A DNA stretch of 64,000 bases, from positions 1 to 64,000 of the IMG/VR virus record IMGVR_UViG_3300037067_006044; one strand, given 5' to 3'. A program made the translations under genes and the position numbers. The notes under the pieces were generated by a model that was not told the DNA's origin, did no database searches, and saw only the letters and a program-made list of their open reading frames with translations. Source of the stretch: a virus. Lineage: Duplodnaviria; Caudoviricetes. Position 1 is the first letter of the stretch. Each line of letters begins with the position of its first letter. Below, in pieces: positions 10,026 to 63,007 of the stretch.

Positions 10026-10952
10026 ATGATAAAAAAATATGAAAATACTATATTTGAAGATGACAATATTAATATACTAAGAAATCTTCCTTCAAATATA
10101 GTTGATTTAATTTGTATTGATCCTCCTTACAACATTTCAAAAGACTATTGGGACATATTTAAAACCAAAGAAGAATATCTTTTATTTATAATTGAAAGAA
10201 TAAAAGAATCAATAAGAGTATTAAAACCAAATGGTTCATTTTATATTTTTCATAATGATTATTTAGTATTAAATGAAATAGTAAATCTTATATTAAAAGA
10301 AACTACCTTAGAATTTAAACAATTTATTACATGGAATAAAAGATTTAAAGATTCTAAGAATAAAGGATTTTTAGATGGTTATGTTTGTTTGACAGCAAAT
10401 AAAAACTATCAAAAGATGGCAGAATATATTGTTTATTTTACCAATACAGAATATAAAAAAGATTTAAATGAATATTTTCAATTATTAGGAAAATCAATCG
10501 GCGGGACTAAGAAAATAAACGAATTTTATGGTCACAGAAAATATGAAAATTGCTTTGTTGATATTGATAAACCTTATTGGTATTTAATGAATGAAGAATT
10601 ATATAATCAATTATTTCAAGATTTTAAAACTAAATTAGAATCATTTAATAAAAGAGAATATAAAGAATTAAAAACATTAACTTATAATAATCAAAATAAT
10701 TCGCATTCAGTTTGGGATTATGATATTGCATCAAAAGAAATTCATATCACTCCAAAACCAATAGATTTATTAAAAAATATAATACTTCATAGTTCAGATG
10801 AAAACGATTTATGTATGGATTATTTTGCTGGTACTGGTAGTTTTGGTAAAGCATGTGTTCAAACTAATAGAAAATATATTCTTATTGAAAGAGATAAAAA
10901 CTATATTGAATATATAAACAAAGAACTGAAAAATAAATTGTTTGAATTTTAA
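10026..10952 (+). CDS. N4/N6 DNA methyltransferase, beta class
   Basis: DPPY, HITPKP, DYFAGTGS; ends KNKLFEF. Confidence 0.93.
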   Translation: MIKKYENTIFEDDNINILRNLPSNIVDLICIDPPYNISKDYWDIFKTKEEYLLFIIERIKESIRVLKPNGSFYIFHNDYLVLNEIVNLILKETTLEFKQFITWNKRFKDSKNKGFLDGYVCLTANKNYQKMAEYIVYFTNTEYKKDLNEYFQLLGKSIGGTKKINEFYGHRKYENCFVDIDKPYWYLMNEELYNQLFQDFKTKLESFNKREYKELKTLTYNNQNNSHSVWDYDIASKEIHITPKPIDLLKNIILHSSDENDLCMDYFAGTGSFGKACVQTNRKYILIERDKNYIEYINKELKNKLFEF

Positions 10953-11117
10953 AATTAAAATTTATTATGAAAAATGAAGAAATATATACATTAAAACAAG
11001 TTAAAAATTTATTTAAATTATATAGTGAATATTTATGTTCTTATTTAGACCAAGATGATATTGGAATAAATATAACAGAAGAAGGTATATTAAAATGGTT
11101 GGATAAAAATATTAATT

Positions 11118-11600
11118 ATGAAAAATGAAGATAGATATGATTTAATAGATTCTTTAAGTTTTTATAGAACAGAAGCACTTGGAATAGGTACTAATAAAAT
11201 CAAAAGAAGATTAAATAAATTAATAGAAACAAATCATATAGTTGAAATAATTAGAACTTTAATTGATGTTGAAGATTGTAATATTTCTGCTAAAAAATAT
11301 TCTCATTCTAAATATAAGGATGAATACTATAATAGAAAACAATCGTTAATATCAGATTTAATTCTACTTTATAAAGAACATAATTATATTTATGGAAGAC
11401 AGAAATCAGATGCAATAGGAATTAAAGATGTTATATTCTTTGAACTTCCAAACTCACCCGTTCAAGTTTCATTTCATACAAATTTAAAAGAAAATAATGT
11501 TCCTGAATATTCCAAATGCTGGGATAGAAAGATTAATTCTACAATGGATAAAATATTCAAATATATCAAAGATAATAAATTGATTAGTTTGGAAAAGTAA
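11118..11600 (+). CDS. Hypothetical protein
   Basis: 160 aa; FFELP..QVSFH...WD pattern. Confidence 0.7.
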   Translation: MKNEDRYDLIDSLSFYRTEALGIGTNKIKRRLNKLIETNHIVEIIRTLIDVEDCNISAKKYSHSKYKDEYYNRKQSLISDLILLYKEHNYIYGRQKSDAIGIKDVIFFELPNSPVQVSFHTNLKENNVPEYSKCWDRKINSTMDKIFKYIKDNKLISLEK

Positions 11601-11865
11601 AATCATTTGGTTTATCATCTGATATTTTAGTATTGTAAGAATTCTTTTTTAAAAAATCGTCTGTATAAATTAAATAATCTTCTCTAATTTTATTTCATTG
11701 AGTAAATGATACATTTGAAAAATCAATAAATTTCTCTTGATTATAATTATCATTATTAACATTATTTTTAATATCCGATTTACTACATATTTTTATTAAT
11801 TACTTTAAAATATAAAAATAATCTGATAAATAATACTTCAAGAGTTTTGTTTGTTTTATTCTTTT

Positions 11866-14903: not shown

Positions 14904-17900
14904 ATGATATATACAAGAGAACAAGTATATGAATCAACTTTAGAATATTTTAAAAATGATGAATTGGCAACTAAAACATGGATTAATAAATATTGTTTAA
15001 AAGATTCAAATGGAAATTTATATGAATTAAATCCGGATGACACAATTAGACGAAATGCTAAAGAATTTGCAAGAATTGAAAGTAAATATCCAAATGGATT
15101 ATCTGAAACCGATATATATGAATTATTTAAAGATTTTAAATATATAGTTCCACAAGGTGGTTCATTGTCTGGGGTCGGAAATGATTTTCAATATACAAGT
15201 CTTTCGAACTGTTTCGTTGTGGGGAATGAATACGATAGTTATGGTGGGTTATTATTGACTGATCAGGAACAAGTTCAATTAATGAAACGTAGAGGAGGTT
15301 GCACCGAAGAAAATACAAATGTATTTATTAAGGATAAAGGATTAATGCATATTAAAGATGTATTAATTGGTGATTTAATTTTATCAAAAAATGATAAAAC
15401 AGGACAAGTTGAATTTAATACTATTATTGATAAATTTGAAGCCGATGTTAAATTAGAAGAGCAAGTTAAAATAACTTATAATAATGGAACAATAATAGAA
15501 ACTTCTATTAATCATCCAATAATGTCTATTGATAATAATGGTGATTATTATTATGATAAAATAATAGATAATTTAAATGTTGATAAATTTGGTATAATAT
15601 CACATACAAATCAAAATATATATGATTATGATAATCAATTATCCGATATCGGTTGGTTTACTGGGATGCATTTTGGTGATGGTACAGCAGATTTAAAAGG
15701 ATATGATAAAAAAACAGTAAGATTTAGAATTAATGGAGATGAAGAAAATTGTATTAAACATTATGGTGATATAGTAAATAATTTAACTGAATCAAATGTT
15801 AATTATAAAATATCAAGCAGAAAAGATTATAAAGTAAAAGTGTGGGAATATAATATATGTAATAAAAATGTAAATTCTATTTGTGAAAAATATTTAGATA
15901 ATCAAATAGGAAGTAAAGTATATATTGGCAAAACATCATCTTTTATAAAACAAAATAATTTATGGATGCCATTTATTTCCGGATTAATTGATTCTGATGG
16001 ACATATAAATGAAACTGGTTCAATTGACATAAGTATATGTATGAAAAATGTTATAGATGATATATGTTCAATATTATCATCCAATGGTATAGATTTTAAT
16101 GTTACAAAACGAACTCCAAAAAGAATTAATGAAAGTATTGTATATAGATTAACTATATATTTGAGAAATGAAATATTTATTAATGAAATTTTAAAAAATT
16201 TACACAATCTAAATAAACAATCTAAATTAACATCAATAATAAATAATGACAATAAAGAATCTCATTATTTATTTAAAAAAGATTTGCCAATAACATCAAT
16301 TGAAATAAACAATATTGTAGAATTAACAACAAATTATATAAAAAACAATTCAGTAACAAATAATTTTTATAATTCTTTTAAGTATGTAAATAAAACAAAA
16401 AGAATAGGATTAGCATTTTTAACTTCATTATATAATAATAATATAATCGATTTGAAATTATATAATAAAATTAATGAACGTATTAAAATAAAACAAATTG
16501 AATATATAACAGATATTAAAAAACGTTATATTGATATTGTTGTTGATCAAAATCATAATTATTTTGCTGGAAATTTTGGATTAATAAATATTCATAATTG
16601 CGGTCATGATTTATCACATATTAGACCTAAAGGAAGTCCTGTTTTAAATAGTGCTTTAACATCAACTGGTGTTGTTCCATTTATGGAAAGATTTTCTAAT
16701 TCTACCAGAGAAGTAGCACAAGACGGAAGACGTGGAGCTCTTATGTTAAGTATTCATGTAAAATCTATAGATTGTGAAGATTTTCTAAGTGCTAAATTAG
16801 ACACATCTAAAATAACCGGTGCCAATATATCTGTTAAATTAGATGATGAATTCATGAATTGTTTATTAAATAATAAAAGTTATATTCAAAGATTTCCAAT
16901 AGAGGACAACACAATATTATCAGAAGAATTTATAAATAATTTAGAATTTAATAAGATTATTAAACTTGAAAATAATACATTAATTAAGAAAATAGAACCT
17001 AAGAAAATTTGGGATAAATTAATTCATAATAATTGGAAATCAGCAGAACCAGGTGTAATGTTTTGGGATACAATGATAAGAAATAGTACCCCAGATAAAT
17101 ATAAAGATTTTGGATTTAAAACTGTTTCAACTAATCCATGTGTAATAGGAGATACTCTTGTATTAACTAATAAAGGATGGATTAAAATAAAAAATTTAAC
17201 TGAATTATATAAAACGACAAATTTTAAAATATTAACAACTAATATTAGTAATAATTTAACTTTTTCTGATTTAGAGTGGTGTGGTATAACCAAAAAACAA
17301 GATGAATTATATTGTATTACTTTTTCTAATGGTAGTTATTTAATATGTAATGATAAACATAAATTATATGACGAAAATTATAATGAAATTATTGCCATAA
17401 ATTCTGTAGGAATAAAATTATATAAGAGTTGTAATTATAAAGAAATTGTTTTTGTTGAAACTATAACTAAATTAGATTATAAAGAAGATGTTTATGATTT
17501 AACTGCAAATCCAAATTATAATTTTTTTAGTTATTTAGGAGAAGAATGTTGGAATGAAGATTTAAATATTGAAATCACAGAAACAAATAATATAACAGAA
17601 TTAAAATTTGATTCATCGAAATTAAACAATAAAAGAGATGAAATTGTCATATATCATAATTTCTTAAATAGTTTATTGTCAGTGGATTGTGGAGAAATTC
17701 CGCTTTGTCCATATGATTCGTGTAGATTATTTGTATTAAATTTATATAGTTATGTAGAAAATCCATTTACAAAAAATGCTAAATTTAATTTTAAATTGTT
17801 TGATATTCATGTTCAATATGCACAACGATTCATGGACGATTTAATTGATTTAGAAATTGAAAAAATTGACAAAATATTAGAAAAAATAGAAAAAGACCCA

Positions 17901-27341: not shown

Positions 27342-27529
27342 AATAAATAAATATGAAATGTACAGTTTGTAGAAAACAAATATTAAATGAATCATACCAA
27401 ATAAAAATAAATTCTGATGTAGTCGTATGTTCTAAAGAATGCTTAGATTATTATAATAAAACTAAAAATGATATTGATTTTGGAGAAGATATAAGAGATA
27501 TTATTAATAATCAATTCGATTTCTAAATA

Positions 27530-28444: not shown

Positions 28445-29194
28445 ATGAGTAATCAAATTATTTTAGGAGATGCACTTACTTCTCTTTCACAATTTCCAAA
28501 TGGTTATTTTAATTCTATTATTTCAGATATTCCATATTTTGTTTTAAAGAATGTTGGTTGGGATAATCAATGGAAATCATTAGATGAATATTTATTATTT
28601 ATGGATAAAATATTCTTAGAATATAAAAGAATAATTAAAGAAGACGGAAATCTTTTTATCTTTACTGGAAGACAATATAATAGACACATCTGTATGTTGC
28701 TTGATAAATACTTTATTGAACAAAGAATTATTATTTGGAGTAGAAAAAGATTTAATGAAACAAGAGGTAAAGCATTAAGTAGTGGATATGAACCAATTTG
28801 TTTCTATTCTAATTCTTCAGATTTTACATTTAATAATATCAAAATAAAAGTTGAAAGTGATAGAAAAGAATATACCACTGGAATATTAAAAGACGGAATT
28901 AATTTAAGTGATGTTTGGAACGATATTCCTGCTCTTCCTCATAATTCTAAAGAAAGAATAAAAGAACATCCAAGTCAAAAACCAATTAATTTTATTAAAA
29001 GAATATTAGAAATTGGTACTAATGAAAATGATATTGTATTGGATAATTTTGCTGGAACTGGTACTCTTGGCGATGCTTGTTTGGATATGAATAGAAACTT
29101 TGTACTTATTGATAATAATGAAGAATATATCAATATAATAAATAAAAGAATAAACTCAAATAAAACTAAGAATGAATTATTTGAGTTTAATTAA
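28445..29194 (+). CDS. N4/N6 DNA methyltransferase, beta class
   Basis: DIPY, HPSQKP, DNFAGTGT; ends KNELFEFN. Confidence 0.9.
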   Translation: MSNQIILGDALTSLSQFPNGYFNSIISDIPYFVLKNVGWDNQWKSLDEYLLFMDKIFLEYKRIIKEDGNLFIFTGRQYNRHICMLLDKYFIEQRIIIWSRKRFNETRGKALSSGYEPICFYSNSSDFTFNNIKIKVESDRKEYTTGILKDGINLSDVWNDIPALPHNSKERIKEHPSQKPINFIKRILEIGTNENDIVLDNFAGTGTLGDACLDMNRNFVLIDNNEEYINIINKRINSNKTKNELFEFN

Positions 29195-45375: not shown

Positions 45376-47529
45376 TTAAAAGTTAAATAAATTTTTAGTT
45401 GTTTTATAATTGTTATTGAATTTTAATTTAAATTCGTCTGAATCTAATATTTCAATTCCTAAATCTATTGCTTTTTGTTCTTTACCACTCCCACTACCTT
45501 TATATTTTACAATTAGATATTTAACATTTTTTGATATTCCACTTTTAACTTCTCCTCCATTATCTATAATATATTTTTCCATTTCATCATCTCTAAATCC
45601 AGTAAATACAAATGATAACCCGGTTAAAGAACCTTGTTTAGGTTGGGAAATTGTTTGTGTTTTAATATTAATAAACTGTTCAATTTCTTTATAAAACAAA
45701 TTAAATTTATCAATGTTATTTAAATAATCATTAACTAATATATCAGATAATCCATTTATTTCAATTAATTCTTTTAATGATGGATTTTGATTTTTAGATT
45801 CTAATATGTAATCATTAATAAGTTTTAATTTCTTACTACCAGATTTCTTAAAACATCCTGAAGCATGTTGTAATGTACTTAAATCAACATCTTTTAATTT
45901 TTTGTGAATATTATTAAAAACTATTTCTGCTTTTCTATTTCCAAATCCTTCAAAAGTTTTTAATTTATTAATATCTAATTGTAATACTTTTAAAATAGAA
46001 TCATATCCTTCTTCATATAAAATTCTAAATGTACTTTCTTTTACTTCCTCTACTCCAATTGTATCAAAAAAAGAACTAATTACTTTTATTCTTTGTTCTT
46101 TACAATTATTATGATTAGTACAAACAAGATGAGTTTCATTTTCATCCCATTTTAATTTAGTATTACATGATGGACAATATTCTTTTAAAAAAGAATGATT
46201 TTTAATTTCTTCTTTTCTAATTTCAATTAATTTTTCGACTGCCAAATCATATTCTTTAGTAGAATTATATAAATGTTTAAAAGGAATTTTATGTCCATTA
46301 ACACTAATAATTTTAGGTATAACTTCTCCAGAACGAATAACTTCTATTTTAGTTCCTGGAAATAATCCAAACTGAAAAACATTATTATAATTATTTAAAG
46401 TACAATTTTCTATTTTTGCACCACCAATAAAAACGGGATTAATTTCTCCGACTGGTTGAATATTTCCTCTTTTTGAAACTTCATCTACAATATTATTTAA
46501 AACTGTTTCATAAGCTGTTTCAAAGTTTCCTTTATAAGCAAATGAAAAATTTGGATTTCCTTCTTTATGAATTCCTAATTTATTTCTTAAATCAACTGAA
46601 TTAATATCTATTACAATTCCATCACATTCATATTCAGAATTAAATTCATTATAAATATCATTTAACAATTCTTCTGTTAATTCTGATATTTTGTGTTTTT
46701 TATATTGAACTTTTACATTGTTTAATTCATTACAAATATCTAATTGTTTGTCTTTATTGTATATTTGTTTTCCTTCTAAATTAAAATGATTGTAACGAAT
46801 ATAATCACAAATAGTAATGTCTTTATTTACTTCATCTTTATTAATAAATCCAGATACAGTATTTCTTGCTGCCTTAGGAATATCAATTTTAGAATTTAAT
46901 TTTTGTTCTTGTAATTTTCTTTCTTGATATTGTTTAAAATTTGATTTAGAAATAATAACTTCTCCCGAAGTATAACAATGGGATTCTGATAATTTATTAT
47001 TTGATTTTTCAATTGTATTTAAATGTTCTGTAGAATTTCTACCATAATCAGAATCCCCTCTTGTCCATGATTTTAAACTTGTTTCATTTCTGAGTTGGGA
47101 TAATCCATCATATTTAGGAGATAAAACTACATCAGTAGAAGTTGGAATATTATGTCTTTTACACCAATTAAGAATATCATTTATAGATTTGAATTTATCT
47201 AATGATCCCATTATAATTGGAAGTTTTTCTTTTCTACTATCTTTATCACTTACATTATATCCAATTTGGAAAAATGAATCATTTGGTTTAAAATCTTTTA
47301 ATAATTCATAAACTACATCATATTCTTTATCAGTTACAATACTTTCTCCTGTTCTATATGAAATATTCCATTCTGTAAGATATGTTTTTAATTCATCTAA
47401 AAATTTATTCCATTCTTCTTTAGATGGGAGATTATTTATTTTATATGAATTTGTTAATTGATTAATTATAATATCTAAATTATAATTACAATCTTTTATA
47501 AGTTTTAATAATATTTCTTGTGAATTCAT
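45376..47529 (-). CDS. ligA: NAD-dependent DNA ligase
   Basis: MGSLDK, KYDG adenylation motif, TRGD, DGIV, RSGEVIPKI, Cys4 Zn finger, HhH, BRCT (FVFTGFRD); ends KNLFNF. Confidence 0.95.
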   Translation of the reverse strand: MNSQEILLKLIKDCNYNLDIIINQLTNSYKINNLPSKEEWNKFLDELKTYLTEWNISYRTGESIVTDKEYDVVYELLKDFKPNDSFFQIGYNVSDKDSRKEKLPIIMGSLDKFKSINDILNWCKRHNIPTSTDVVLSPKYDGLSQLRNETSLKSWTRGDSDYGRNSTEHLNTIEKSNNKLSESHCYTSGEVIISKSNFKQYQERKLQEQKLNSKIDIPKAARNTVSGFINKDEVNKDITICDYIRYNHFNLEGKQIYNKDKQLDICNELNNVKVQYKKHKISELTEELLNDIYNEFNSEYECDGIVIDINSVDLRNKLGIHKEGNPNFSFAYKGNFETAYETVLNNIVDEVSKRGNIQPVGEINPVFIGGAKIENCTLNNYNNVFQFGLFPGTKIEVIRSGEVIPKIISVNGHKIPFKHLYNSTKEYDLAVEKLIEIRKEEIKNHSFLKEYCPSCNTKLKWDENETHLVCTNHNNCKEQRIKVISSFFDTIGVEEVKESTFRILYEEGYDSILKVLQLDINKLKTFEGFGNRKAEIVFNNIHKKLKDVDLSTLQHASGCFKKSGSKKLKLINDYILESKNQNPSLKELIEINGLSDILVNDYLNNIDKFNLFYKEIEQFINIKTQTISQPKQGSLTGLSFVFTGFRDDEMEKYIIDNGGEVKSGISKNVKYLIVKYKGSGSGKEQKAIDLGIEILDSDEFKLKFNNNYKTTKNLFNF

Positions 47530-51450: not shown

Positions 51451-51479
51451 ATCATTATTTATTTGATTATATAATTATT

Positions 51480-53322: not shown

Positions 53323-55017
53323 ATGGTAATTTGCAAAATTTGTAATGAAGAATTTGAAAATTATGCTTTCTTATCTTCACACATTAGATTTAAACATAAA
53401 ATGACTTCTTATGATTATAGTTTGAAATACGATTATAATGGAGAAATTCATAAATGTAAGTGTGGGTGTGGTCAAGAAACTAAATGGTTTAATATCAATA
53501 TCGGTTTTTATGATTTTGTAAAAGGTCATGACAATACTTTTAGACATCAACAATTATTAATTAAAAAAGTTTGTATTATTTGTGGAACAGAATTTAAAAC
53601 AAAAAATAAAGATAAAGTTATTTGCACTAAAAGAGAATGTTATCAAAAAGATTTATATAATAGAACTCACGAAATAAGAACTTGTCCTTGTGGAGAAAAA
53701 TTCGAATGTTCTAAAACATCACCTCAAATATATCATTCTTTTGAATGTAGTAGAAAAGACCCAGCAATGTGGGAAAAAATGAGACAAACATTAATTGAAA
53801 CATATGGTGTTGACAATTATTCTAAAACAGAAGAGTTTAAAGAATGTGCAAGAGAAAATTCATATTTTAAAACAGAGGAATTTCAAGTAAAAGCTAAGAA
53901 AACAAAAGAAGAACGATATGATGATGAAAATTATAATAATAGACCAAAAGCAGTAAATAGTAATTTAAAATTTTATTTTAATAATTTATTTACTTCTGAT
54001 AGATTAAAGAACTTGGTTACTCCATTATTTACTATTGATGATTATAAAGGAGTAGATAAAATATATCAATTTAAATGTAATAGATGCGATAATATATTTG
54101 AATCCAATTTATTTCATATTCCAAGATGTTTAGAATGTTTTCCATTTAAAAAAAATACATCTGAAGGAGAGATTGAATTATTTAATTATATTAAATCATT
54201 AATTCCAAATGAAAATATTATACAAAACGATATAAAAACATTACCAAATAATTTAGAAATTGATATATATATTCCTAATTTAAATATTGCATTTGAATAT
54301 AATGGAATATATTGGCATAGTGCAAAATTTAAAAATTATAATTATCATAAATGGAAATATGAAAAATGCAAAGAACAAAATATTCAATTAATTCAAATAT
54401 TTGAAAATGAATGGATTTTTAAAAAAGAAATTGTAAAGTCAATTATTAAAAACAAATTAAAATTAATAAAGAATAAAATATATGCGAGAAAATGTGAAAT
54501 TAAAGAAATAAATAGTCAAGAATCAAATAGTTTTTTATTTGATAATCATATTCAAGGAATAGTAAACACACAATATAAATTCGGATTATTTTATAATGAC
54601 AAATTAATTTCATTGATGACAATTGGAAAATCAAGATTTGATAAAAAATATGAATATGAAATAATACGATTCTGTAATAAAATAAATTATTCTATTATTG
54701 GTGGATTTAATAAACTTTTATCTTATTTCATTAAAACATATAATCCAAATTCTATAATCAGTTATGTTGATAAAAGATATTTTACTGGGAATATGTATAA
54801 TCAAACAGATTTTAAATTAATAGAATCATATAATAAACCAAATTATTTTTATTTTAAAGGATATGAAATGTATAATAGAATTGAATTCCAAAAACATAAA
54901 TTAAAAGATAAATTAGAAATATACGATGAAAATCTAACAGAATGGCAAAATATGGAATTAAATGGATATAATAAAATTTATGATTGTGGAAATTTTAAAT
55001 ATGTCTGGGAAAAATAA
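53323..55017 (+). CDS. Free-standing homing endonuclease, Hef-like (Zn fingers plus Vsr/PD-(D/E)xK-like domain)
   Basis: C2H2 start, CKCGCG, YGVDNY, EIDIYIP..IAFEYNGIYWHS, IYARKC, NHIQG, YVDKRY, IYDCG. Confidence 0.8.
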   Translation: MVICKICNEEFENYAFLSSHIRFKHKMTSYDYSLKYDYNGEIHKCKCGCGQETKWFNINIGFYDFVKGHDNTFRHQQLLIKKVCIICGTEFKTKNKDKVICTKRECYQKDLYNRTHEIRTCPCGEKFECSKTSPQIYHSFECSRKDPAMWEKMRQTLIETYGVDNYSKTEEFKECARENSYFKTEEFQVKAKKTKEERYDDENYNNRPKAVNSNLKFYFNNLFTSDRLKNLVTPLFTIDDYKGVDKIYQFKCNRCDNIFESNLFHIPRCLECFPFKKNTSEGEIELFNYIKSLIPNENIIQNDIKTLPNNLEIDIYIPNLNIAFEYNGIYWHSAKFKNYNYHKWKYEKCKEQNIQLIQIFENEWIFKKEIVKSIIKNKLKLIKNKIYARKCEIKEINSQESNSFLFDNHIQGIVNTQYKFGLFYNDKLISLMTIGKSRFDKKYEYEIIRFCNKINYSIIGGFNKLLSYFIKTYNPNSIISYVDKRYFTGNMYNQTDFKLIESYNKPNYFYFKGYEMYNRIEFQKHKLKDKLEIYDENLTEWQNMELNGYNKIYDCGNFKYVWEK

Positions 55018-55991: not shown

Positions 55992-56109
55992 AATATATAA
56001 ATTAAATTGTTATTTATATATAAATATAAAATAAAAAAGAAAACATTTAAATATAATAATGAAATACTATATTCTAATTATAAAATTACAATATAATATA
56101 TAAACACAA

Positions 56110-56604
56110 TCAAAAATTAAGTATCGGAAAATTGTACTTGAGAACAACTGACACTATTAATAGATCTCCTTCTGAAGCATACTCCATATCTCCAAAATCA
56201 ATACTTTTAGGCCACGCTCCTTTTAAAGTCCAGGATTCACAAATTCCTCCAACAGGGTCTAAAACATTAATTGTTACATCTTTTGCGAAAAAATCAAAAT
56301 AGCCATCTCTCCCTGTGATACTTTCATGAGATAATCTTAGCCACTCCATCATAATTTGTGCTCCACTTGGAACAATAGGATCCCAAAGTTCAATTGCACA
56401 TTCACTACTCCATTTTGATTTTCCTTTAGCATATCTTGAAACGTTGATGTGAGGAATCTCTATTTCGGTTGTTTCAATACTTGGTCTTGTTGTTTTTCTA
56501 ATCAAGTAAGTTGGGACACCATCTATCTCCATGATAAAACGGTTTCGTAATTTTGGTTCCCATTGAGTATAAAATAATTCATTAGGATCTACAAATTCTG
56601 CCAT
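56110..56604 (-). CDS. Tail tube protein, T4 gp19-like
   Basis: EPKLRNRF, RPS, LWDPIVPSGAQ, EWLRL, ESITGRDGY, LDPVG, WTLKGAWP. Confidence 0.85.
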   Translation of the reverse strand: MAEFVDPNELFYTQWEPKLRNRFIMEIDGVPTYLIRKTTRPSIETTEIEIPHINVSRYAKGKSKWSSECAIELWDPIVPSGAQIMMEWLRLSHESITGRDGYFDFFAKDVTINVLDPVGGICESWTLKGAWPKSIDFGDMEYASEGDLLIVSVVLKYNFPILNF

Positions 56605-56734: not shown

Positions 56735-58543
56735 ATGAAATGTAAATTTTGTCAAGAAGAAATTAAAGAAGGAAAAGAATATTGTAATAGAACATGTTTT
56801 AATAATCACAGAAAAGAATTATATTATAAAATTGTAAAATGTTTAAATTGTACTAATACAATACAAATAAAAAAAACAAATAATCATACTAAATTCTGTT
56901 GTAATAATTGTAAAAAAGAATTTGCAAATAAACAATATAAACACAAAAAAATATGCAAAAACTGCAGCAGAGAATTTGAATTATATAAATCAGAAACATT
57001 GATATTTTGTTGTCATGCTTGTAGATGCGAATATGATAGAAAACAATTTAGAGAAGACAGAATTTGTAAAAAATGTGGAAACACATTTAACACATTTAAA
57101 AGTAGTGATCAAGAATTTTGTACTCATGAATGTTATATTGAATATATAAAAGAAATAACAAAAATAAAATATGATACAGAATTTTCAAATTGTTTATTAT
57201 GTGGAGAAAAAATAAGATTAAATGAAAAATTTTGTTGTAAGGCACATAAAGAAAAATATTATTCACAAAAAAGCAGAGAAATAAGAATATGTGAATGTGG
57301 TAGAGAATTTGAAGTGTATAAAAAAGATTCAAAATTTTTATGTTCTGATGAATGTCAAAAAAAATATATTCTAAAACCAGAAGTTTTGGATAAGATAAAA
57401 GAAAAACGTGCAATCACTTCTAATTTCAATAATTATAATGCAAGAATAGACAAAATAAAATCTTTAAATTTATTTGATTTTGATTGTTCGGAAGAAGAGT
57501 ATAAATCCAATAAAAATATTAAATTAAAATGTAAAAAATGTGGATATGAATTTGAAGAAAAAATTAATTTAAATCATTTGCCAAGTTGTATAAAATGTAA
57601 TCCTATTCCATATATATTATCTAAACCAGAAGAAGAATTAAGTGATTATATACATTCTATAATAAATAAAAATATAATAGAAAATAAAAGAACAATTATA
57701 AGACCTTTAGAATTAGATTTTTATCTACCAGATTATAATTTAGCTATTGAATTTGATGGTTGTTATTGGCATAGTGAAATTCATGGACATAAAGATAAAA
57801 AATATCATATTAATAAAACTAAAATGTGTGAATCCCAAGGAATTCAATTAATTCATATATTTGATGATGAATGGACAAATAAAAAAGAAATAATTAAAAA
57901 CACAATAAAACATAAATTAAATTTAAATAATACAGATAAAATATATGCAAGAAAATGTATAATTAAAGAAATAAATTCAAAAACAAAAAATACATTTTTA
58001 AATAATAATCACATTCAAGGAGAAGATAAAAGTAAAATTAAACTCGGATTATTTTATAATGATGAATTAGTTGCAGTCATGACTTTTGGAAAATTGCGAT
58101 TAGCATTAGGAAATAAAACATCTAATATTAATGAATATGAGTTAATAAGATTTGCAACATCTAAAACAATTATTGGTGGATTTAGTAAATTATTGTCTTA
58201 TTTTATTAAAACATATAATCCAATTAAAATAACAACTTATGCTGATAAAAGATGGAGTAATGGAAATGTTTATATTAAAAACGGATTTAATCTTATACAT
58301 GAAACTCAACCAAATTATTGGTATATGAAAAATTATAGTATTAGAGAACATAGATTCAAATATAGAAAATCAGAATTACCTAAATTATTAACAAATTATA
58401 ATTCGGAATTAACTGAATGGGATAATATGCAATTAAATGGATATGATAGAATTTGGGATTGTGGTTCATTAAAATTTGAAATGAATATCTCTCAACTTAA
58501 TACTTCTGATAAAAATAATATTAACAAGCTATTCGAATTTTAA
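56735..58543 (+). CDS. Free-standing homing endonuclease, Hef-like, with tandem Cys4 Zn repeats
   Basis: Repeated CxxC...FCxxxC units; ELDFYLP..LAIEFDGCYWHS, IYARKC, YADKRW, IWDCG; paralog of 53323..55017; ends NKLFEF. Confidence 0.8.
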   Translation: MKCKFCQEEIKEGKEYCNRTCFNNHRKELYYKIVKCLNCTNTIQIKKTNNHTKFCCNNCKKEFANKQYKHKKICKNCSREFELYKSETLIFCCHACRCEYDRKQFREDRICKKCGNTFNTFKSSDQEFCTHECYIEYIKEITKIKYDTEFSNCLLCGEKIRLNEKFCCKAHKEKYYSQKSREIRICECGREFEVYKKDSKFLCSDECQKKYILKPEVLDKIKEKRAITSNFNNYNARIDKIKSLNLFDFDCSEEEYKSNKNIKLKCKKCGYEFEEKINLNHLPSCIKCNPIPYILSKPEEELSDYIHSIINKNIIENKRTIIRPLELDFYLPDYNLAIEFDGCYWHSEIHGHKDKKYHINKTKMCESQGIQLIHIFDDEWTNKKEIIKNTIKHKLNLNNTDKIYARKCIIKEINSKTKNTFLNNNHIQGEDKSKIKLGLFYNDELVAVMTFGKLRLALGNKTSNINEYELIRFATSKTIIGGFSKLLSYFIKTYNPIKITTYADKRWSNGNVYIKNGFNLIHETQPNYWYMKNYSIREHRFKYRKSELPKLLTNYNSELTEWDNMQLNGYDRIWDCGSLKFEMNISQLNTSDKNNINKLFEF

Positions 58544-58562
58544 TATATGTATAAAAAAAGAT

Positions 58563-58910
58563 ATGATTTGTCAATTTTGTGGTAAAGATACAAGAAAGAA
58601 TAGCAAAGATTACTATATGCTTACTCCGGAATTATGGGGTATTATAACTCGTGATTTAAATGGATTTATGTGCATGGATTGTGTGGAAGATAAATTAGGA
58701 AGAAACCTTCAAAGAGAAGATATTACAGCATGTCCACAAAATGTTTTTAATAATCTTTATACTTCTTTACTTTTTAAAGAATATGAAATACATGAAGCTA
58801 TATTAGAATGTGAAAGACGAGATTTAGAATGGAAAATTAAATTAAAACAAATCAAAGAAGAAAAAGAATTAAGAAAATTAGCAAGAATAAATAAAAAAAT
58901 AAGCAAATAA
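58563..58910 (+). CDS. Small Zn-finger-like hypothetical protein
   Basis: CQFC...YYML..ELW...CMDC..KLGR. Confidence 0.7.
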   Translation: MICQFCGKDTRKNSKDYYMLTPELWGIITRDLNGFMCMDCVEDKLGRNLQREDITACPQNVFNNLYTSLLFKEYEIHEAILECERRDLEWKIKLKQIKEEKELRKLARINKKISK

Positions 58911-58917
58911 ATTAAAT

Positions 58918-59784
58918 ATGTCTCAATCATTATTCGTTCACACCAATAAAATATCTTTAGATAAATATTATACTCCAATTGAGAAGTCTCAAGAATTAAT
59001 TGAATTTACTCTTAATTTTATTGGAAGGAATAAGATAGATACAATAATAGAACCAAGTGCCGGAAATGGTTCATTCTCAAATTATCTTTTCAACACTTAT
59101 TCGAACATTTATAAAATTCATGCATTCGATATAAAACCAGAAGAAGGAAGAATAAAGGAACAAGATTTCTTAAAGATTACTAATTTTAGGTATAATGATA
59201 AATGTCTTATTATTGGAAATCCTCCATTTGGAGAAAACAAGAATCTATTAACACAATTTTTTAATAAGAGTATTTTATTATCTGAATATATTGCTTTCAT
59301 TCTCCCAATTTCATATCTTAATAATAGTAAATCATTTTTTTATTATGATTTGATAAGTAGTAAGGATTTAGGATTAATGAATTATTCTGATAGAGAATTG
59401 ACTTGTTGTTTTAATATTTATAAAAGACCTATTTCCGGAAGTTTAAATAAATTAAAAAGTAATAAAATAGATTTTATAGAAATTAAGCAAGAGAAATATA
59501 ATCATCTTTCTTCTTATGATTTTCGAGTTCAAAGATTAGGAGAAAATATTGGAAAAGTAGTAAAAGAAAAAGAAATAAAAAGTTATTATGCAATTAAGAT
59601 ACATTCAGATGATAATGAATTAAAAGAAAGAATTAGATTGATTTTTGATAGTTATGATTGGATGAGTGTAAAACAATTTATTTCGATTCCATATCTTACT
59701 ATTACTGATATTTATGATGTTTTAAATGAAGAATTAAAATTAGATACAAAAGATAATAAAACAGATAAATTATTTGAATTTTAG
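58918..59784 (+). CDS. N6-adenine DNA methyltransferase, gamma class
   Basis: YYTP, IEPSAGNGSF, QDFL, GNPPFG, FILP; ends DKLFEF. Confidence 0.9.
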   Translation: MSQSLFVHTNKISLDKYYTPIEKSQELIEFTLNFIGRNKIDTIIEPSAGNGSFSNYLFNTYSNIYKIHAFDIKPEEGRIKEQDFLKITNFRYNDKCLIIGNPPFGENKNLLTQFFNKSILLSEYIAFILPISYLNNSKSFFYYDLISSKDLGLMNYSDRELTCCFNIYKRPISGSLNKLKSNKIDFIEIKQEKYNHLSSYDFRVQRLGENIGKVVKEKEIKSYYAIKIHSDDNELKERIRLIFDSYDWMSVKQFISIPYLTITDIYDVLNEELKLDTKDNKTDKLFEF

Positions 59785-59789: not shown

Positions 59790-60719
59790 ATGATAGAAAA
59801 TTATATAAATAAATTATTTTGCAAAGACAATTTAGAGTTATTAAAAGAACTTCCTAACAATAGTATCGATTTAATTTATTCAGATATTCTTTATGGAACC
59901 GGAGTTAAGTTTGATGATTATCAAGATTTAAAGATAAATATAAAAGAGAAGTTAATATTTGATATTATTCCAGAGACTATTTATAATCATTATTGGATTA
60001 GATTAATTGAGATGAAGAGAATATTAAAAGATACTGGAAGTATTTATCTTCAAATGGATACAAGAATAAATCATTGGATAAGAATAATGATGGATATGAT
60101 TTTTGGATATAATAATTTTCACAATGAGATAACTTGGAATTATAGATTTAGTCCTGTTTCATCTTCTCATTTTTCAAAAGCACACGATATAATTTTATTT
60201 TATTCTAAATCAGATACTTATACATTTAATAAAATAAATCATTTATTTGATAGTTCAGAAAGAACAAAATCAGATTGGTTAAAATTTGCAGATGAAAACG
60301 GAAATGTTTTAATGAAAGATTTGCCATCATCTTTAAAAAATTCGTCTATATTTATTCGTAGCGGTAGAAAAGATGGTGATGTCGGATTTAATTGTTTAAA
60401 TGGAATACCAATTGATTGGTGGGAAATACCGACATCTGTTAGAGGAAATAATCCAGAAATAAAACACGGAAAATACAATACTCAAAAACCAGAAAGATTA
60501 TTAGAAAGAATAATTCTTGCAAGTAGTAATGAAAATGACATTGTTTTAGATTTATATATGGGAAGTGGGACATCAATGGTTGTTGCTAAGAAAAATAATA
60601 GAAAATGGATTGGATGTGATATAAATTCAAAGAGTATTGATTTAACAAATTTAAGATTGAATGATATTGAAGATAAATCAAAACAAATAGAACATAAAAA
60701 TAAATTATTTGAATTTTAG
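59790..60719 (+). CDS. N4/N6 DNA methyltransferase, beta class, DILY variant
   Basis: SDILYGTG, TQKPERLL, DLYMGSGT; ends NKLFEF. Confidence 0.88.
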   Translation: MIENYINKLFCKDNLELLKELPNNSIDLIYSDILYGTGVKFDDYQDLKINIKEKLIFDIIPETIYNHYWIRLIEMKRILKDTGSIYLQMDTRINHWIRIMMDMIFGYNNFHNEITWNYRFSPVSSSHFSKAHDIILFYSKSDTYTFNKINHLFDSSERTKSDWLKFADENGNVLMKDLPSSLKNSSIFIRSGRKDGDVGFNCLNGIPIDWWEIPTSVRGNNPEIKHGKYNTQKPERLLERIILASSNENDIVLDLYMGSGTSMVVAKKNNRKWIGCDINSKSIDLTNLRLNDIEDKSKQIEHKNKLFEF

Positions 60720-60734
60720 TTTTATATTTTTAGA

Positions 60735-62087
60735 ATGATAGTTACAACAAATAATATATTCAATCAATTAAAATCTGAAATAGATATTTATTCTAATTTC
60801 ATTATTCTTCCTATTTTAGAAAATCATCTATTATTAAGATATAAGAATAATTTACTTTTATTATACATTTGTATTTTAGATGATAATTTCAATATTGTAA
60901 ATAAGTATATTTTAAACATAAATCATTTAGATATTTTCTTTAAATGTAATATAGATGAATTAGATTTTACAAATAAGAATCTATACACAAATGATAAGAA
61001 ATGTCTTACTTTCTTTTTATCTTGTACTAATATATATGAATTGCAGATAGTTGATAAGAATGTAAATTTCAATAGGAAAACACTGGATTTAAACAATACA
61101 TTCAATCTTCATCATTCTAAGAAATCATATAATAAAATATTACCATTAACTCATCACATTGAATATTTAGAACAAGAATTTCAGTATTATTATGATTTAT
61201 TAATAGAAAATAAAACAAGAATAAAGGATAAAGATTTCTTATTTTACAATAATATTATTTCCACTCTTTATAAGATAGAAAGTGAAGGAATATGTATAAA
61301 TAAAGAATTGTTTAAAGAAATAAATAAAGATAAGTTACAATATCATTTAAAAGATTCATTTGATAATTATGTATATTGTGATTATAATATTTATACTTCT
61401 ACAGGAAGGACTTCTAATTCATATGGAAGAATAAATTTTAATGCGTTAAATAAAAAAACAAATGAAAGAGAAATAATAGTTAGTAGATATGGAAAAGAAG
61501 GAATGTTGATTGAATTTGATTATTCTGCATATCATCTTTCAATATTAGCAGATTTAATACAATATAAATTTCCAGATAATATAAAGAGTATTCATGATTA
61601 TTTAGGAAAACAATATTTTAATGTAGAAGAATTAAGTAAAGAACAATATAAAGACACAAAAATATTAAATTTTCAATTTTTATACGGAGGAATACCAGAT
61701 GATATAATTGATAATATTGAATATTTTAAAAAAGTTAATATTTATTTAAAACTATTATATAAAGAATATTTAGAAAATGGATTTATTGTTTCTCCTATTT
61801 CAAATAGAAGAATAGATAATGTAGAAAATCACAATGCAAATAAAGTATTAAATTATTTATTGCAAATGTTAGAAACTGAAATAACTACTAATAATATTTC
61901 TAATGTAATGAATAAAATAAATAATAAAAAAATACATTCAATACTTTATGTTTATGATTCTATTTTATTTGATATTCATAAATCAGAATTAGAATTTATG
62001 GAAAATATTAAAACAATTTTATCAGAAAATAATAAATTTATCATAACAACTAAATATTCCGAAACAAATTATAAAGATATTAAATGA
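60735..62087 (+). CDS. Divergent family A DNA polymerase-like protein
   Basis: TSTGRTS, motif A EFDYSAYH, motif B KILNFQFLYG, NYLLQ, motif C YVYDS. Confidence 0.75.
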   Translation: MIVTTNNIFNQLKSEIDIYSNFIILPILENHLLLRYKNNLLLLYICILDDNFNIVNKYILNINHLDIFFKCNIDELDFTNKNLYTNDKKCLTFFLSCTNIYELQIVDKNVNFNRKTLDLNNTFNLHHSKKSYNKILPLTHHIEYLEQEFQYYYDLLIENKTRIKDKDFLFYNNIISTLYKIESEGICINKELFKEINKDKLQYHLKDSFDNYVYCDYNIYTSTGRTSNSYGRINFNALNKKTNEREIIVSRYGKEGMLIEFDYSAYHLSILADLIQYKFPDNIKSIHDYLGKQYFNVEELSKEQYKDTKILNFQFLYGGIPDDIIDNIEYFKKVNIYLKLLYKEYLENGFIVSPISNRRIDNVENHNANKVLNYLLQMLETEITTNNISNVMNKINNKKIHSILYVYDSILFDIHKSELEFMENIKTILSENNKFIITTKYSETNYKDIK

Positions 62088-63007
62088 TAGAAAATTATAT
62101 AAATAAATTATTTTGTAAAGATAATTTAGAATTATTAAAAGAACTTCCTTCCAATTCTATTGATTTGATTTATGGTGATATTTTGTATGGAACTGGAAAA
62201 GATTGGAAGGATTATAAAGATATAAATAGCAATGAAACAGAAGTCAATACTTTTTATTATGAACGAATAAAGGAGATGAAAAGAGTATTAAAAGAAACTG
62301 GCTCTATTTATCTTCAAATGGACACAAATATCAATCATTATATTAAATTAATGTTAAATAAAATCTTTGGAAATAAAAACTTTAGAAATGAAATAATTTG
62401 GAAAAGAGGTAATTCAAGTGGATTTAAAACTCAATATAATGGATTTATTAAAAATCATGACATAATTTTATTTTATTCTAAATCAGACAAATATTTATTT
62501 AATAAATTAAAATATGATGAATATAATGGGTTTTACAATAGATGGAAAAAATATAGTTTAGATAATGAAACAATAACATATATTAATTTTCCTAAGTCAG
62601 ATAAAAAATGGCTTAATTCATTAATAGAAAAATTTAAAAAAGAAAATAATAGAGAACCATTAAATAATGATATACTTTATAGATTTAATTCTACATATAT
62701 AGAAGACATTTGGACAGATATATCTGACATTGCTTATGGTTCAAAAGAAAAAATTGATTATGCAACTCAAAAACCAGAAAAATTATTAGAAAGAATAATT
62801 CTTGCAAGTAGTAATAAAAATAATATTGTTTTGGATTGTTTTCTCGGAAGTGGAACTACAATCGTTGTTTCTGAAAAATTGAATAGAAAATGGATTGGTA
62901 TAGATATAAATCAAAAAAGTATTGAAATAACAAATGAAAGATTAAACAATATAAATACACACCAAATAAAAATAAAAGAAAAACTTAATAATATATTTGA
63001 ATTTTAA
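62084..63007 (+). CDS. N4/N6 DNA methyltransferase, beta class, DILY variant; paralog of 59790..60719
   Basis: First 22 aa identical to the paralog; GDILYGTG, TQKPEKLL, DCFLGSGT; ends NNIFEF. Confidence 0.88.
   Translation: MIENYINKLFCKDNLELLKELPSNSIDLIYGDILYGTGKDWKDYKDINSNETEVNTFYYERIKEMKRVLKETGSIYLQMDTNINHYIKLMLNKIFGNKNFRNEIIWKRGNSSGFKTQYNGFIKNHDIILFYSKSDKYLFNKLKYDEYNGFYNRWKKYSLDNETITYINFPKSDKKWLNSLIEKFKKENNREPLNNDILYRFNSTYIEDIWTDISDIAYGSKEKIDYATQKPEKLLERIILASSNKNNIVLDCFLGSGTTIVVSEKLNRKWIGIDINQKSIEITNERLNNINTHQIKIKEKLNNIFEF

What the first reader, a model, noticed from the sequence alone, without database searches (positions are those of the whole stretch)
10026..63007. Common C-terminal LFEF tag on five methyltransferases, the DNA ligase and a homing endonuclease: candidate clamp-coupled methylation system
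Seen in sequence: C-termini KNKLFEF (10952), KNELFEFN (29194), KNLFNF (ligase, 45376), INKLFEF (58543), TDKLFEF (59784), KNKLFEF (60719) and LNNIFEF (63007). All seven proteins act on DNA, they belong to unrelated folds or classes, and the tag follows a polar linker. I did not see it on any other ORF in the window. Established: T4/RB69 polymerase, gp33 and gp55 dock on the gp45 sliding clamp through short hydrophobic C-terminal peptides, and eukaryotic DNMT1 binds PCNA. Inference: this phage tethers its whole methyltransferase set to the replication clamp, or another hub, to protect nascent DNA from restriction.
Basis: partly seen in the sequence, partly recalled or inferred. Interest (0 to 1): 0.82.

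Follow-up and report, generated by a model that had tools for sequence, protein, structure and literature searches.

The report
Clamp-docking tails on phage DNA-modifying enzymes
An uncultured AT-rich giant phage has added the same short tail (hydrophobic-Phe-x-Phe at the very end) to all five of its DNA methyltransferases, its DNA ligase and one endonuclease; related phages carry this tail on their DNA polymerase, where it is the known handle for the sliding clamp, so these enzymes probably ride the clamp and modify new DNA as it is copied, although binding has not been measured.

Summary
Seven ORFs in the window end in [L/I]-F-[E/N]-F, against about 0.1 expected (Poisson p about 1e-11). They are four beta-class and one gamma-class DNA methyltransferase, an NAD-dependent ligase and a Hef-like HNH endonuclease. 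The tail is an add-on. A paralogous endonuclease stops about 18 residues earlier, 119 ligase homologs lack it, and most methyltransferase homologs end just after their last conserved helix.

The link to the clamp is comparative but strong. The hexapeptide NKLFEF is the exact C-terminus of gp43-type family-B polymerases on about 11 unrelated viral contigs. Four of these also encode a gp45-type clamp beside or near the polymerase gene. RB69-type gp43 ends MFDF, the peptide crystallised on its clamp.

A distant relative (G001, 174 kb) has the full module in one cluster. It holds a split gp43 whose C-terminal piece ends NFFGF, a gp45-type clamp (profile hits only to RB69/T4-type clamps; AF2 pLDDT 94, PCNA fold), gp44/gp62-like loaders and nine tagged methyltransferase-type ORFs.

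Caveats: the window's own contig is about 36% complete and holds no clamp or PolB. The scan has noted analogous tails, with other peptide sequences, in several other phage genomes. I found no paper describing this.

The parts
10026..10952 (+). Beta-class N6/N4 DNA methyltransferase, 308 aa; tail ...KELKNKLFEF (LFEF codons 10938-10949)
   Evidence: Pfam PF01555 E=8.5e-40, domain ends at residue 299; DPPY and FAGTG motifs; tail read
28445..29194 (+). Beta-class N6/N4 DNA methyltransferase, 249 aa; tail ...KTKNELFEFN (LFEF codons 29177-29188, one extra Asn)
   Evidence: Pfam PF01555 E=1.4e-43, domain ends at residue 234
45376..47529 (-). NAD-dependent DNA ligase, 717 aa; about 17-residue extension after the BRCT domain, ending ...YKTTKNLFNF (LFNF codons 45379-45390)
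   Evidence: Pfam adenylation, OB, Zn-finger and BRCT (635-700) domains; none of 119 homologs has such a tail; the nearest annotated-phage ligases stop right after BRCT
56735..58543 (+). Hef-like HNH homing endonuclease, 602 aa; about 18-residue extension ...NISQLNTSDKNNINKLFEF (LFEF codons 58529-58540)
   Evidence: phrog_3339 and phrog_559 E about 1e-104 to 1e-113; phage homologs align only to about residue 581-592; comparison with the paralog
53323..55017 (+). Untagged paralog of the endonuclease, 564 aa; ends ...CGNFKYVWEK at the point where the tagged copy continues. Internal control.
   Evidence: Same PHROG families; C-terminal comparison
58918..59784 (+). Gamma-class (motif I before motif IV) DNA methyltransferase, 288 aa; tail ...DNKTDKLFEF (LFEF codons 59770-59781)
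   Evidence: EPSAGNGSF at about residue 45 and NPPF at 101; phrog_5172 and phrog_799 'DNA methyltransferase'; the G001 ortholog (56% identity) ends ...SKHFEF
59790..60719 (+). Beta-class N6/N4 DNA methyltransferase, 309 aa; tail ...IEHKNKLFEF (LFEF codons 60705-60716)
   Evidence: Pfam PF01555 E=1.4e-41; the G001 ortholog (66% identity) ends ...QQNKLFEF; most homologs end near residue 291; in the AF2 model the last helix 280-306 runs into the tail with pLDDT falling from 86 to 68
62084..63007 (+). Beta-class N6/N4 DNA methyltransferase, 307 aa; tail ...KEKLNNIFEF (IFEF codons 62993-63004)
   Evidence: Pfam PF01555 E=5.9e-47; the G001 ortholog (52% identity) ends ...NNYFNFK
27353..27526 (+). 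Borderline candidate client: 57-aa CxxC...CxxC protein with an acidic tail ...DIRDIINNQFDF (Gln instead of a hydrophobic residue at -4)
   Evidence: only weak PHROG hits to families of unknown function; not homologous to the 57-aa tagged ORF of G001

Best explanation
The tail (polar linker, then L/I/Y/F, Phe, any residue, Phe/Tyr at the C-terminus) is most likely a sliding-clamp-docking peptide of the T4/RB69 gp43 type. In this phage lineage the replicative family-B polymerase ends in this peptide, and the phage encodes a gp45-type trimeric clamp with gp44/gp62-type loaders. By copying the polymerase's handle onto all its methyltransferases (two classes), its NAD-dependent ligase and an HNH endonuclease, the phage would place these enzymes on clamps that are loaded at primer ends and left behind on freshly made duplex DNA. 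The enzymes would then scan new DNA in one dimension and act straight after synthesis. Methyltransferases would mark it before host restriction enzymes, or nucleases that target unmodified DNA, can cut. The ligase would seal Okazaki nicks, as the T4 ligase does on gp45. Shown here: the tail exists, is strongly enriched, is an appended module, is kept at the protein level, and matches polymerase C-termini that sit next to clamps of the same family. Inferred: physical binding, that the window's own phage has such a clamp, and the protective purpose.
For: 1. Enrichment in the own contig: 7 observed against 0.10 expected, p about 1e-11. In G001 the relaxed motif gives 13 against 1.2 expected, p about 8e-10.
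2. The tail is an add-on. The untagged paralog ends about 18 residues earlier. 119 of 119 ligase homologs lack it. Most of 120 methyltransferase homologs end right after the last conserved helix. Synonymous codons differ between tails.
3. It has the profile of a short linear motif over 20 tagged proteins: F at -3 in 20/20, F/Y at -1 in 20/20, a hydrophobic or aromatic residue (His once) at -4, a free -2 position and polar -5/-6.
4. The polymerase link. Exact DNA for KLFEF-stop in IMG/VR finds about 11 contigs whose 884-910-aa family-B polymerases end ...TFNKLFEF. They align with T4 gp43. On 4 of them (L015, L020, L024, L033) a clamp of family A1 lies beside or near the polymerase gene.
5. Relative G001 has a split gp43. 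Its C-fragment aligns with T4 gp43 residues 694-881 of 898 and ends ...NQNFFGF. Other gp43 orthologs next to A1-family clamps end KKFFAF, NENAWF or LEDFF.
6. An RB69-type gp43 read from the sequence ends ...KKASLFDMFDF. The 11 C-terminal residues of the RB69 polymerase were co-crystallised with the RB69 clamp (PMC2988020; PDB 1b8h is among the profile hits).
7. The G001 clamp has 432 homologs of about 240 aa. Its profile matches only three PDB sequences: the RB69 and T4 gp45 clamps and the clamp in entry 6drt (E from 2e-7 to 2e-6). The AF2 model has pLDDT 93.7, and Foldseek gives TM about 0.8 to PCNA. gp44-like and gp62-like loaders lie in the same block.
8. Gene context elsewhere. L070 has the order tagged MTase, clamp (E=4e-57), gp44-like, gp62-like. 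L069 has a tagged MTase and a tagged TGT/DpdA-like enzyme near a PolB.
9. Precedent. The T4 gp43, gp33 and gp55 tails are interchangeable clamp handles on variable linkers (PMC2988020). T4 ligase carries a copy of the gp43 motif and binds gp45 with Kd about 11 uM (PMC6212786).
Against: 1. The window's own 101.5-kb contig has no detectable clamp, loader or family-B polymerase. The contig is only about 36% complete, but the hub is therefore unproven for this phage.
2. G001 shares only 16 of 155 genes with it.
3. No binding data exist and no complex model could be made.
4. Several replication proteins in the window lack the tail: the FEN-type exonuclease, the DnaB-like helicase, the 821-aa protein that an unchecked scan note calls a primase-helicase, and a PolA-like ORF inside the methyltransferase cluster.
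5. One G001 methyltransferase (39966-41048) is untagged.
6. In the closer relative G006 an FGase-family amidohydrolase carries ...ELFEF. In the own contig an LRR protein ends ...DFFKF. So clients are not all recognisable DNA enzymes, which leaves room for a different hub.
7. AF2 predicts the tail as a continuation of the last helix and not as a free coil.
Confidence: 0.7

Rival explanations
1. The tail docks the enzymes on the host's beta clamp (DnaN) and not on a phage-encoded clamp. The phage enzymes would then use host clamps left on DNA.
For: No phage clamp is visible on the window's contig. Terminal hydrophobic peptides ending in Phe are also typical of beta-clamp clients. About 20 of 120 methyltransferase homologs end in ...[K/N/R]LF, which resembles the end of QLxLF.
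Against: The tail has no Gln and does not fit QL[S/D]LF or QLxLxL. The same tail ends gp43-type polymerases that sit beside or near gp45-type clamps. The related phage has its own clamp and loaders inside the tagged-gene cluster. The host is unknown, so its clamp could not be examined.
Confidence: 0.08
2. The tail is an address or control label read by a different partner. Possibilities include a protease degron that times the removal of early enzymes, a signal for packaging into the capsid, or a signal for entry into a phage replication compartment.
For: Clients include proteins with no obvious clamp business: an FGase-family amidohydrolase in G006, an LRR protein ending DFFKF and possibly a glycosyltransferase in G001. 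Exposed hydrophobic C-termini are also used by bacterial proteases. No binding test was possible.
Against: This does not explain why the replicative polymerase carries the same tail at the position homologous to the gp43 clamp handle. It does not explain why the tail equals the ends of polymerases encoded next to clamps, or why tagged genes cluster with the clamp and loader genes. The odd clients can be read as DNA hypermodification enzymes.
Confidence: 0.12
3. The shared ending has no function of its own. It would come from common descent of paralogous methyltransferases plus chance in a Phe/Lys/Asn/Glu-rich proteome.
For: Four of the seven proteins are paralogs of one family (PF01555). At 20% GC the proteome is rich in F, K, N, E and L.
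Against: Shuffles that keep composition give about 0.08 hits and never more than 2. The ligase, the HNH endonuclease, the gamma-class methyltransferase, the polymerase and the TGT-like enzyme are unrelated folds. The -3 and -1 positions are invariant while -2 drifts, across phages that share only about 10% of their genes. Homologs outside the lineage lack the tail.
Confidence: 0.03

Closest known systems
C-terminal gp45-binding tails of T4/RB69 gp43 (polymerase), gp33 and gp55
   Same: A short hydrophobic, partly acidic peptide at the extreme C-terminus, on a variable linker, shared by unrelated proteins of one phage and equal to the polymerase's own end. RB69-type ...MFDF fits the same pattern (hydrophobic, F, D/E, F) as LFEF. 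The hub in the relatives is a gp45-type clamp.
   Different: The known clients are the polymerase and two transcription factors. Here the clients are DNA methyltransferases of two classes, an NAD-dependent ligase and an HNH endonuclease, and in relatives a Vsr-like endonuclease, a TGT/DpdA-like enzyme and an amidohydrolase. T4's own Dam methyltransferase has no such motif. The peptide sequence differs from T4's LDFL[F/Y].
T4 DNA ligase (gp30) binding to gp45 through a copy of the gp43 motif (PMC6212786)
   Same: A ligase that carries a copy of its phage's polymerase clamp handle. This is experimental proof that such copies bind the clamp (Kd about 11 uM, crystal structure).
   Different: T4 ligase is ATP-dependent and has the motif in an internal loop of the nucleotidyltransferase domain. 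Here the ligase is NAD-dependent and the motif is a C-terminal extension after the BRCT domain, absent from 119 homologs.
DNMT1 binding to PCNA (PIP box) in eukaryotes
   Same: A DNA methyltransferase tethered to the replication clamp so that newly made DNA is methylated at once (reviewed in PMC9690074). This is the closest functional analogy.
   Different: There is no homology. In DNMT1 (from my own knowledge, not checked here) the motif is a PIP box (Qxx[ILM]xx[FY][FY]) in the N-terminal part of one maintenance enzyme. Here a C-terminal hydrophobic-F-x-F tail is placed on a whole set of de novo-type bacterial-style methyltransferases, and the likely purpose is anti-restriction and not epigenetic inheritance.
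Bacterial beta-clamp-binding motif clients (QL[S/D]LF, QLxLxL)
   Same: Terminal or exposed short hydrophobic peptides that plug into a cleft of a ring clamp and are shared by many DNA enzymes, including ligase.
   Different: The consensus is not met: there is no Gln and the spacing of hydrophobic residues differs. The clamp found in relatives is trimeric gp45/PCNA-like, not DnaN.

Membership tests
gp45-type clamp-binding C-terminal tails (T4/RB69 gp43, gp33, gp55 kind) | Short hydrophobic or aromatic (often acidic) peptide at the extreme C-terminus, shared by unrelated proteins of one phage | tested here: met
   Seven window ORFs of four unrelated folds end in [L/I]F[E/N]F. F is invariant at -3 and F/Y at -1 over 20 lineage proteins.
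gp45-type clamp-binding C-terminal tails (T4/RB69 gp43, gp33, gp55 kind) | The peptide sits on a variable linker outside the catalytic fold and is dispensable for the fold | tested here: met
   The untagged paralog ends about 18 residues earlier. Ligase and methyltransferase homologs lack the tail. Pfam domains end 9-23 residues before the C-terminus in the four PF01555 methyltransferases. AF2 shows a helical extension with falling confidence, not a coil.
gp45-type clamp-binding C-terminal tails (T4/RB69 gp43, gp33, gp55 kind) | The cognate replicative polymerase ends in the same peptide | tested here: inconclusive
   Met in relatives: G001 split gp43 ends NFFGF, and gp43-type polymerases on about 11 contigs end NKLFEF. 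No family-B polymerase lies on the window's own 36%-complete contig.
gp45-type clamp-binding C-terminal tails (T4/RB69 gp43, gp33, gp55 kind) | The phage encodes a gp45-type clamp and a gp44/gp62-type loader | tested here: inconclusive
   Present in G001 and L070, and the clamp next to or near NKLFEF polymerases. Not found on the window's contig or on G006.
gp45-type clamp-binding C-terminal tails (T4/RB69 gp43, gp33, gp55 kind) | Physical binding of the peptide to the clamp | not testable with these tools
No biochemical data exist.
Bacterial beta-clamp-binding motif (QL[S/D]LF or QLxLxL) | Gln at position 1 and the Leu/Phe pattern of the penta- or hexapeptide | tested here: not met
   Tails read N/K-K/N-[L/I]-F-[E/N]-F. 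There is no Gln and the spacing of hydrophobic residues differs.
Canonical PIP box (Qxx[ILM]xx[FY][FY]) | Gln, an aliphatic residue at +3, and two adjacent aromatic residues at +6 and +7 | tested here: not met
   There is no Gln, and the aromatics are at i and i+2 with the chain ending on the second. The tail resembles the RB69 PIP-like tail ...MFDF more than the strict consensus.
DNA methyltransferases (the clients) | SAM-binding motif I and catalytic motif IV, or a family HMM match | tested here: met
   PF01555 E from 1e-40 to 1e-47 for four ORFs. The 288-aa ORF has EPSAGNGSF and NPPF plus PHROG methyltransferase hits.

The most novel reading that the evidence does not exclude
Large T4-related phages attach their polymerase's clamp handle to their whole DNA-modification arsenal: methyltransferases of several classes, DpdA-type transglycosylases, and enzymes of unknown substrate such as an FGase-like amidohydrolase. 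DNA modification would then be coupled to replication through the sliding clamp, as a phage counterpart of DNMT1 on PCNA. The tail would then serve as a sequence marker for finding new enzymes that act on DNA. Each lineage would have its own tail sequence that co-evolves with its clamp.
Probability: 0.5. Interest if true: 0.75.

Novelty: new variant of a known kind. Interest (0 to 1): 0.62.

Why it matters
Phage methyltransferases are usually pictured as free enzymes that must win a race against host restriction on every new genome copy. Tethering them to clamps left on nascent DNA would explain how a phage with many different methyltransferases can mark its genome fully and quickly. It would also extend the clamp toolbelt idea in phages from replication and late transcription to DNA modification. 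The idea is directly testable with peptides and a recombinant clamp. If it holds, the tail gives a cheap way to flag unknown proteins in phage genomes as DNA-acting enzymes; here those are an FGase-like amidohydrolase and a TGT-like enzyme. Full searches of the held paper library found clamp tethering described only for the T4 polymerase, ligase and late transcription factors and for eukaryotic DNMT1, not for phage methyltransferases.

Tried and rejected
1. Pfam searches of the own contig for gp45 (PF02916) and DnaN domains (PF00712, PF02768) found nothing. The clamp protein and the clamp profile also found nothing.
2. The weak PHROG 'clamp loader' hit for 41813-42769(-) was rejected. The ORF has no Walker A motif and no hit to solved structures.
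3. The 258-aa ORF 48986-49762(-) was tried as a clamp candidate. It has no PDB or PHROG hit.
4. The SSB-like ...EEDDLPF ORF was not pursued as a hub.
5. The ligase was used to find close relatives in IMG/VR, with no result. The nearest annotated-phage ligases (634-642-kb uncultured phages) lack the tail.
6. The word-based homolog search for the clamp found only itself. The exhaustive search was needed.
7. The search for related loci with the 94-row clamp alignment failed because no stretch was conserved enough. With the single clamp it returned only G001.
8. The context of the closest clamp homolog, P0122, was a 1.3-kb contig and was useless.
9. PF02916 did not detect clamps on the NKLFEF-polymerase contigs. 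The custom profile did.
11. The metagenome scan meant to reach the C-terminus of the L069 polymerase found nothing.
12. Relatives cannot be drawn for a virus record.
13. The two 57-aa tagged ORFs of G000 and G001 are not homologous.
14. The 821-aa protein's ending ...DEFVY is not conserved in its G001 ortholog, so I do not count it as a tag.

Full report
WHAT THE WINDOW IS. The window is the first 64 kb of a 101,564-bp IMG/VR virus record. CheckV estimates it at 36% complete, which implies a genome of roughly 280 kb. GC content is about 21% throughout. The contig encodes typical large-phage functions: a FEN-type 5'-3' exonuclease, a DnaB-like helicase, a T4 Rnl1-type RNA ligase, ThyX, a radical-SAM enzyme, an NAD-dependent ligase, Hef-like HNH endonucleases and a ParB-like protein. 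Many proteins have no family match.

THE OBSERVATION. All seven C-termini are as reported. I made a crude non-overlapping gene set for the whole contig: 155 ORFs and 29,831 residues. In it the motif [LIMVF]F[ENDQ]F occurs 16 times, and seven of these are at a C-terminus. The internal rate predicts 0.096 terminal hits, giving a Poisson p of 1.4e-11. In 2000 shuffles that keep each protein's composition, the mean was 0.08 and the maximum 2. AT-rich composition therefore does not explain the pattern. The tails are written with different synonymous codons, so they are held at the peptide level and were not spread by recent gene conversion.

WHAT THE TAGGED PROTEINS ARE. Four are PF01555 (beta-class) N6/N4 methyltransferases. 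The 288-aa ORF has no Pfam hit. It has motif I (EPSAGNGSF) ahead of motif IV (NPPF) and matches PHROG methyltransferase families, so it is a gamma-class methyltransferase. The 717-aa protein is an NAD-dependent ligase with a tail after its BRCT domain. The 602-aa protein is a Hef-like HNH homing endonuclease. Every methyltransferase I could find on the contig is tagged.

THE TAIL IS AN ADD-ON. The 564-aa paralog of the endonuclease (53323-55017) ends at ...KYVWEK, exactly where the 602-aa copy continues for about 18 more residues to ...NKLFEF. None of 119 ligase homologs has a comparable end. The closest, at 42-43% identity, stop a few residues after BRCT. So do the ligases of two 634-642-kb uncultured phages, the best hits among annotated phages. 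Of 120 homologs of the 309-aa methyltransferase, most end just after the last conserved helix (...ITKxRLxxx). About ten carry hydrophobic-F-x-F tails, and about twenty end in ...[K/N/R]LF. An AF2 model of this methyltransferase is confident in the core. It shows the last helix (280-306) running on through the tail, with pLDDT falling from 86 to 68. The tail is therefore a protruding extension, predicted helical and not coiled. For comparison, the T4 ligase motif binds gp45 as a helix (PMC6212786).

THE LINK TO THE POLYMERASE. I scanned IMG/VR for the exact DNA encoding KLFEF-stop. Of 37 matches, most were out of frame or ended very short frames. The real ORF ends were dominated by one class: 884-910-aa proteins on about 11 contigs, all ending ...TNTFNKLFEF. 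The two I scanned are family-B polymerases with the exonuclease domain, and the one tested aligns with T4 gp43. From the annotated genomes I read T4 gp43 (...KASLDFLFG), T4 gp55 (...SPSLDFLYEAND), an RB69-type gp43 (...KKASLFDMFDF) and two cyanophage gp43 proteins (...ATL[E/D]FLFA). The RB69-type end MFDF has the same pattern as LFEF. The 11 C-terminal residues of the RB69 polymerase are the ligand crystallised on the RB69 clamp (PMC2988020). That review also records that the gp43, gp33 and gp55 tails are hydrophobic and acidic, sit on divergent linkers and can be swapped freely.

A RELATIVE WITH THE WHOLE MODULE. The same scan found L018, part of a 173,677-bp record (G001: GC 22%, 72% complete). 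It is a distant relative: 16 of 155 genes are shared, and the methyltransferase orthologs are 52-66% identical. G001 has 13 ORFs with a hydrophobic-F-x-[F/Y] end, against 1.2 expected (p about 8e-10). Ten of them lie in one cluster at 41-57 kb. These are five beta-class methyltransferases, four gamma-type methyltransferase-like ORFs and the C-terminal piece of a split gp43-type polymerase.

The polymerase N-part (47195-49420) is followed by a homing-endonuclease-like ORF. The C-part (50626-51666) comes next. It matches phrog_262 positions 583-839 of 856 and T4 gp43 residues 694-881 of 898, and it ends ...NQNFFGF. The tag therefore sits at the position homologous to the gp43 clamp handle.

In the same block lies a 232-aa ORF (55614-56312). 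It hits the PHROG 'DNA polymerase processivity factor' family (E=1e-7) and has 432 homologs of about 240 aa. Its profile matches only three distinct PDB sequences: the RB69 clamp (1b77/1b8h), T4 gp45 (1czd) and the clamp in entry 6drt. It folds with pLDDT 93.7 into a PCNA-type protomer, with Foldseek TM about 0.8. A gp44-like loader (58514-59464) and a gp62-like subunit (60911-61387) follow.

MORE CONTEXTS.
- On four of the NKLFEF-polymerase contigs, a clamp of the same family lies beside or near the polymerase gene.
- Loader-based retrieval found further lineages in which the gp43 ortholog upstream of the clamp ends KKFFAF, NENAWF or LEDFF.
- A 4-kb contig (L070, GC 23%) has the order tagged methyltransferase (...YFKFK), clamp (profile E=4e-57), gp44-like, gp62-like.
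- A 28.6-kb contig (L069, GC 21%) has a tagged methyltransferase (...LFNF) and a TGT/DpdA-like enzyme ending ...SLFGF. They sit in an island with 7-deazaguanine genes and glycosyltransferases next to a 910-aa PolB.
- A closer relative of the window's phage is G006 (43.8 kb). It shares a 530-aa protein at 87% identity. It adds a Vsr/DUF559-like endonuclease (...DLFEF) and an FGase-family amidohydrolase (...ELFEF).

Over 20 tagged proteins of the lineage, position -3 is F in all and -1 is F or Y in all. Position -4 is L/I/Y/F/H, -2 is free, and -5/-6 are polar. This is the signature of a short docking motif.

MECHANISM. The best reading is that the tail plugs into the hydrophobic pocket of a gp45-type clamp, as the polymerase tail does. 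Clamps loaded at primer ends and left on new duplex would carry methyltransferases, the ligase and nucleases along nascent DNA. The ligase case has direct precedent. T4 ligase carries a copy of the gp43 motif and binds gp45 with a Kd near 11 uM (PMC6212786). The methyltransferase case has only a eukaryotic analogue, DNMT1 on PCNA (PMC9690074). T4's own Dam has no such motif. The purpose (protection of nascent DNA from restriction, or from nucleases that target unmodified DNA) is inference. With three sites per ring and many clients, competition with the polymerase is expected, and how it is resolved is unknown.

WEAK POINTS. The window's contig holds no clamp, loader or family-B polymerase. 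G006 holds no clamp either. For this phage the hub is therefore inferred from a distant relative. Several replication proteins in the window are untagged, one G001 methyltransferase is untagged, and a few tagged proteins are not recognisable DNA enzymes: the FGase-like enzyme, and an LRR protein ending DFFKF. These keep alive the rival that the tail is read by another partner. A host beta-clamp target is less likely, because the tail does not fit QL[S/D]LF and the lineage has its own clamp.

NOVELTY AND EARLIER NOTES. Clamp-binding terminal peptides are well known, so this is a new variant of a known kind and not a new kind. Full-text searches found no description of phage methyltransferases tethered to a clamp. 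Earlier notes of this scan report the same tag on this genome. They also report analogous tails, with other peptide sequences ([K/R]LF, L[W/F], DMF[D/E]), on methyltransferases of at least six other phage genomes. Those notes are unchecked leads. My own survey independently saw the ...KLF subgroup among methyltransferase homologs.

Noticed in passing
window 21397-21735 (-): A 112-aa, apparently coiled-coil protein ends ...EEELIIEEDDLPF. This closely resembles the acidic C-terminal tip of bacterial SSB (DDDIPF type). It has no OB-fold or other family hit, so it could be a mimic or decoy of the SSB tail.
   Followed up: partly
window 60735-62087 (+): An untagged 450-aa ORF inside the methyltransferase cluster has family-A polymerase-like motifs (DYSAYHL, KILNFQFLYGG, YVYDSILFD) and a weak PHROG 'DNA polymerase' hit. 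It appears to be a small PolA-like enzyme without an exonuclease domain.
   Followed up: partly
G000 contig 80689-82281 (+) and 95859-97448 (+), beyond the window; G001 6519-8096, 127734-129326, 131006-132601; G006 39987-41579: A multi-copy family of about 530 aa with no Pfam or PHROG function, 64-87% identical between the three phages, always ending ...SKVxLY[T/S]F. The end is tag-like, but it lies in a conserved segment and may be part of the fold.
   Followed up: partly
window 39064-39435 (-): This 123-aa ORF is 91% identical to the C-terminal 123 residues of a 517-aa G001 protein (103427-104980), although the two phages otherwise share few genes, mostly at 24-73% identity. It may be a recently exchanged or mobile domain.
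   Followed up: no
G001 47195-51666 (loci L053, L061): The gp43-type DNA polymerase is split into a 741-aa and a 346-aa ORF by a 366-aa homing-endonuclease-like ORF (phrog_22677, weak phrog_3339).
   Followed up: yes
L069 (JGI 3300033512 contig, 28.6 kb): A DNA-modification island holds three methyltransferases, QueD/QueE/GTP-cyclohydrolase I genes, a TGT/DpdA-like enzyme with the tag (...SLFGF), two glycosyltransferases and an S-AdoMet-lyase-like gene, next to a 910-aa PolB.
   Followed up: partly
G006 1880-2647 (locus L089): An FGase-family (N-formylglutamate amidohydrolase, PF05013, E=2e-35) protein ends ...TELFEF. If the tag marks clamp clients, this enzyme may act on modified DNA.
   Followed up: partly
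window 14904-19325 (+): A 1473-aa ORF ends in a Cys-rich ...GCVGCSQCSYSKCG. Its identity was not examined. Its size suggests a nucleotide-metabolism enzyme with insertions.
   Followed up: no
G000 contig 90068-92023 (+), beyond the window; window 929-1321 (-): Two LRR-containing proteins have tag-like ends (...KTIDFFKF and ...NCIFTY). They are not obviously DNA enzymes.
   Followed up: partly
homologs of window 59790-60719 (proteins P0280-P0386): About 20 of 120 metagenomic homologs of the methyltransferase end in ...[K/N/R]LF (for example NKLF, ENLF, RRLF). This is a second tail type that may be the clamp handle of other phage lineages.
   Followed up: no
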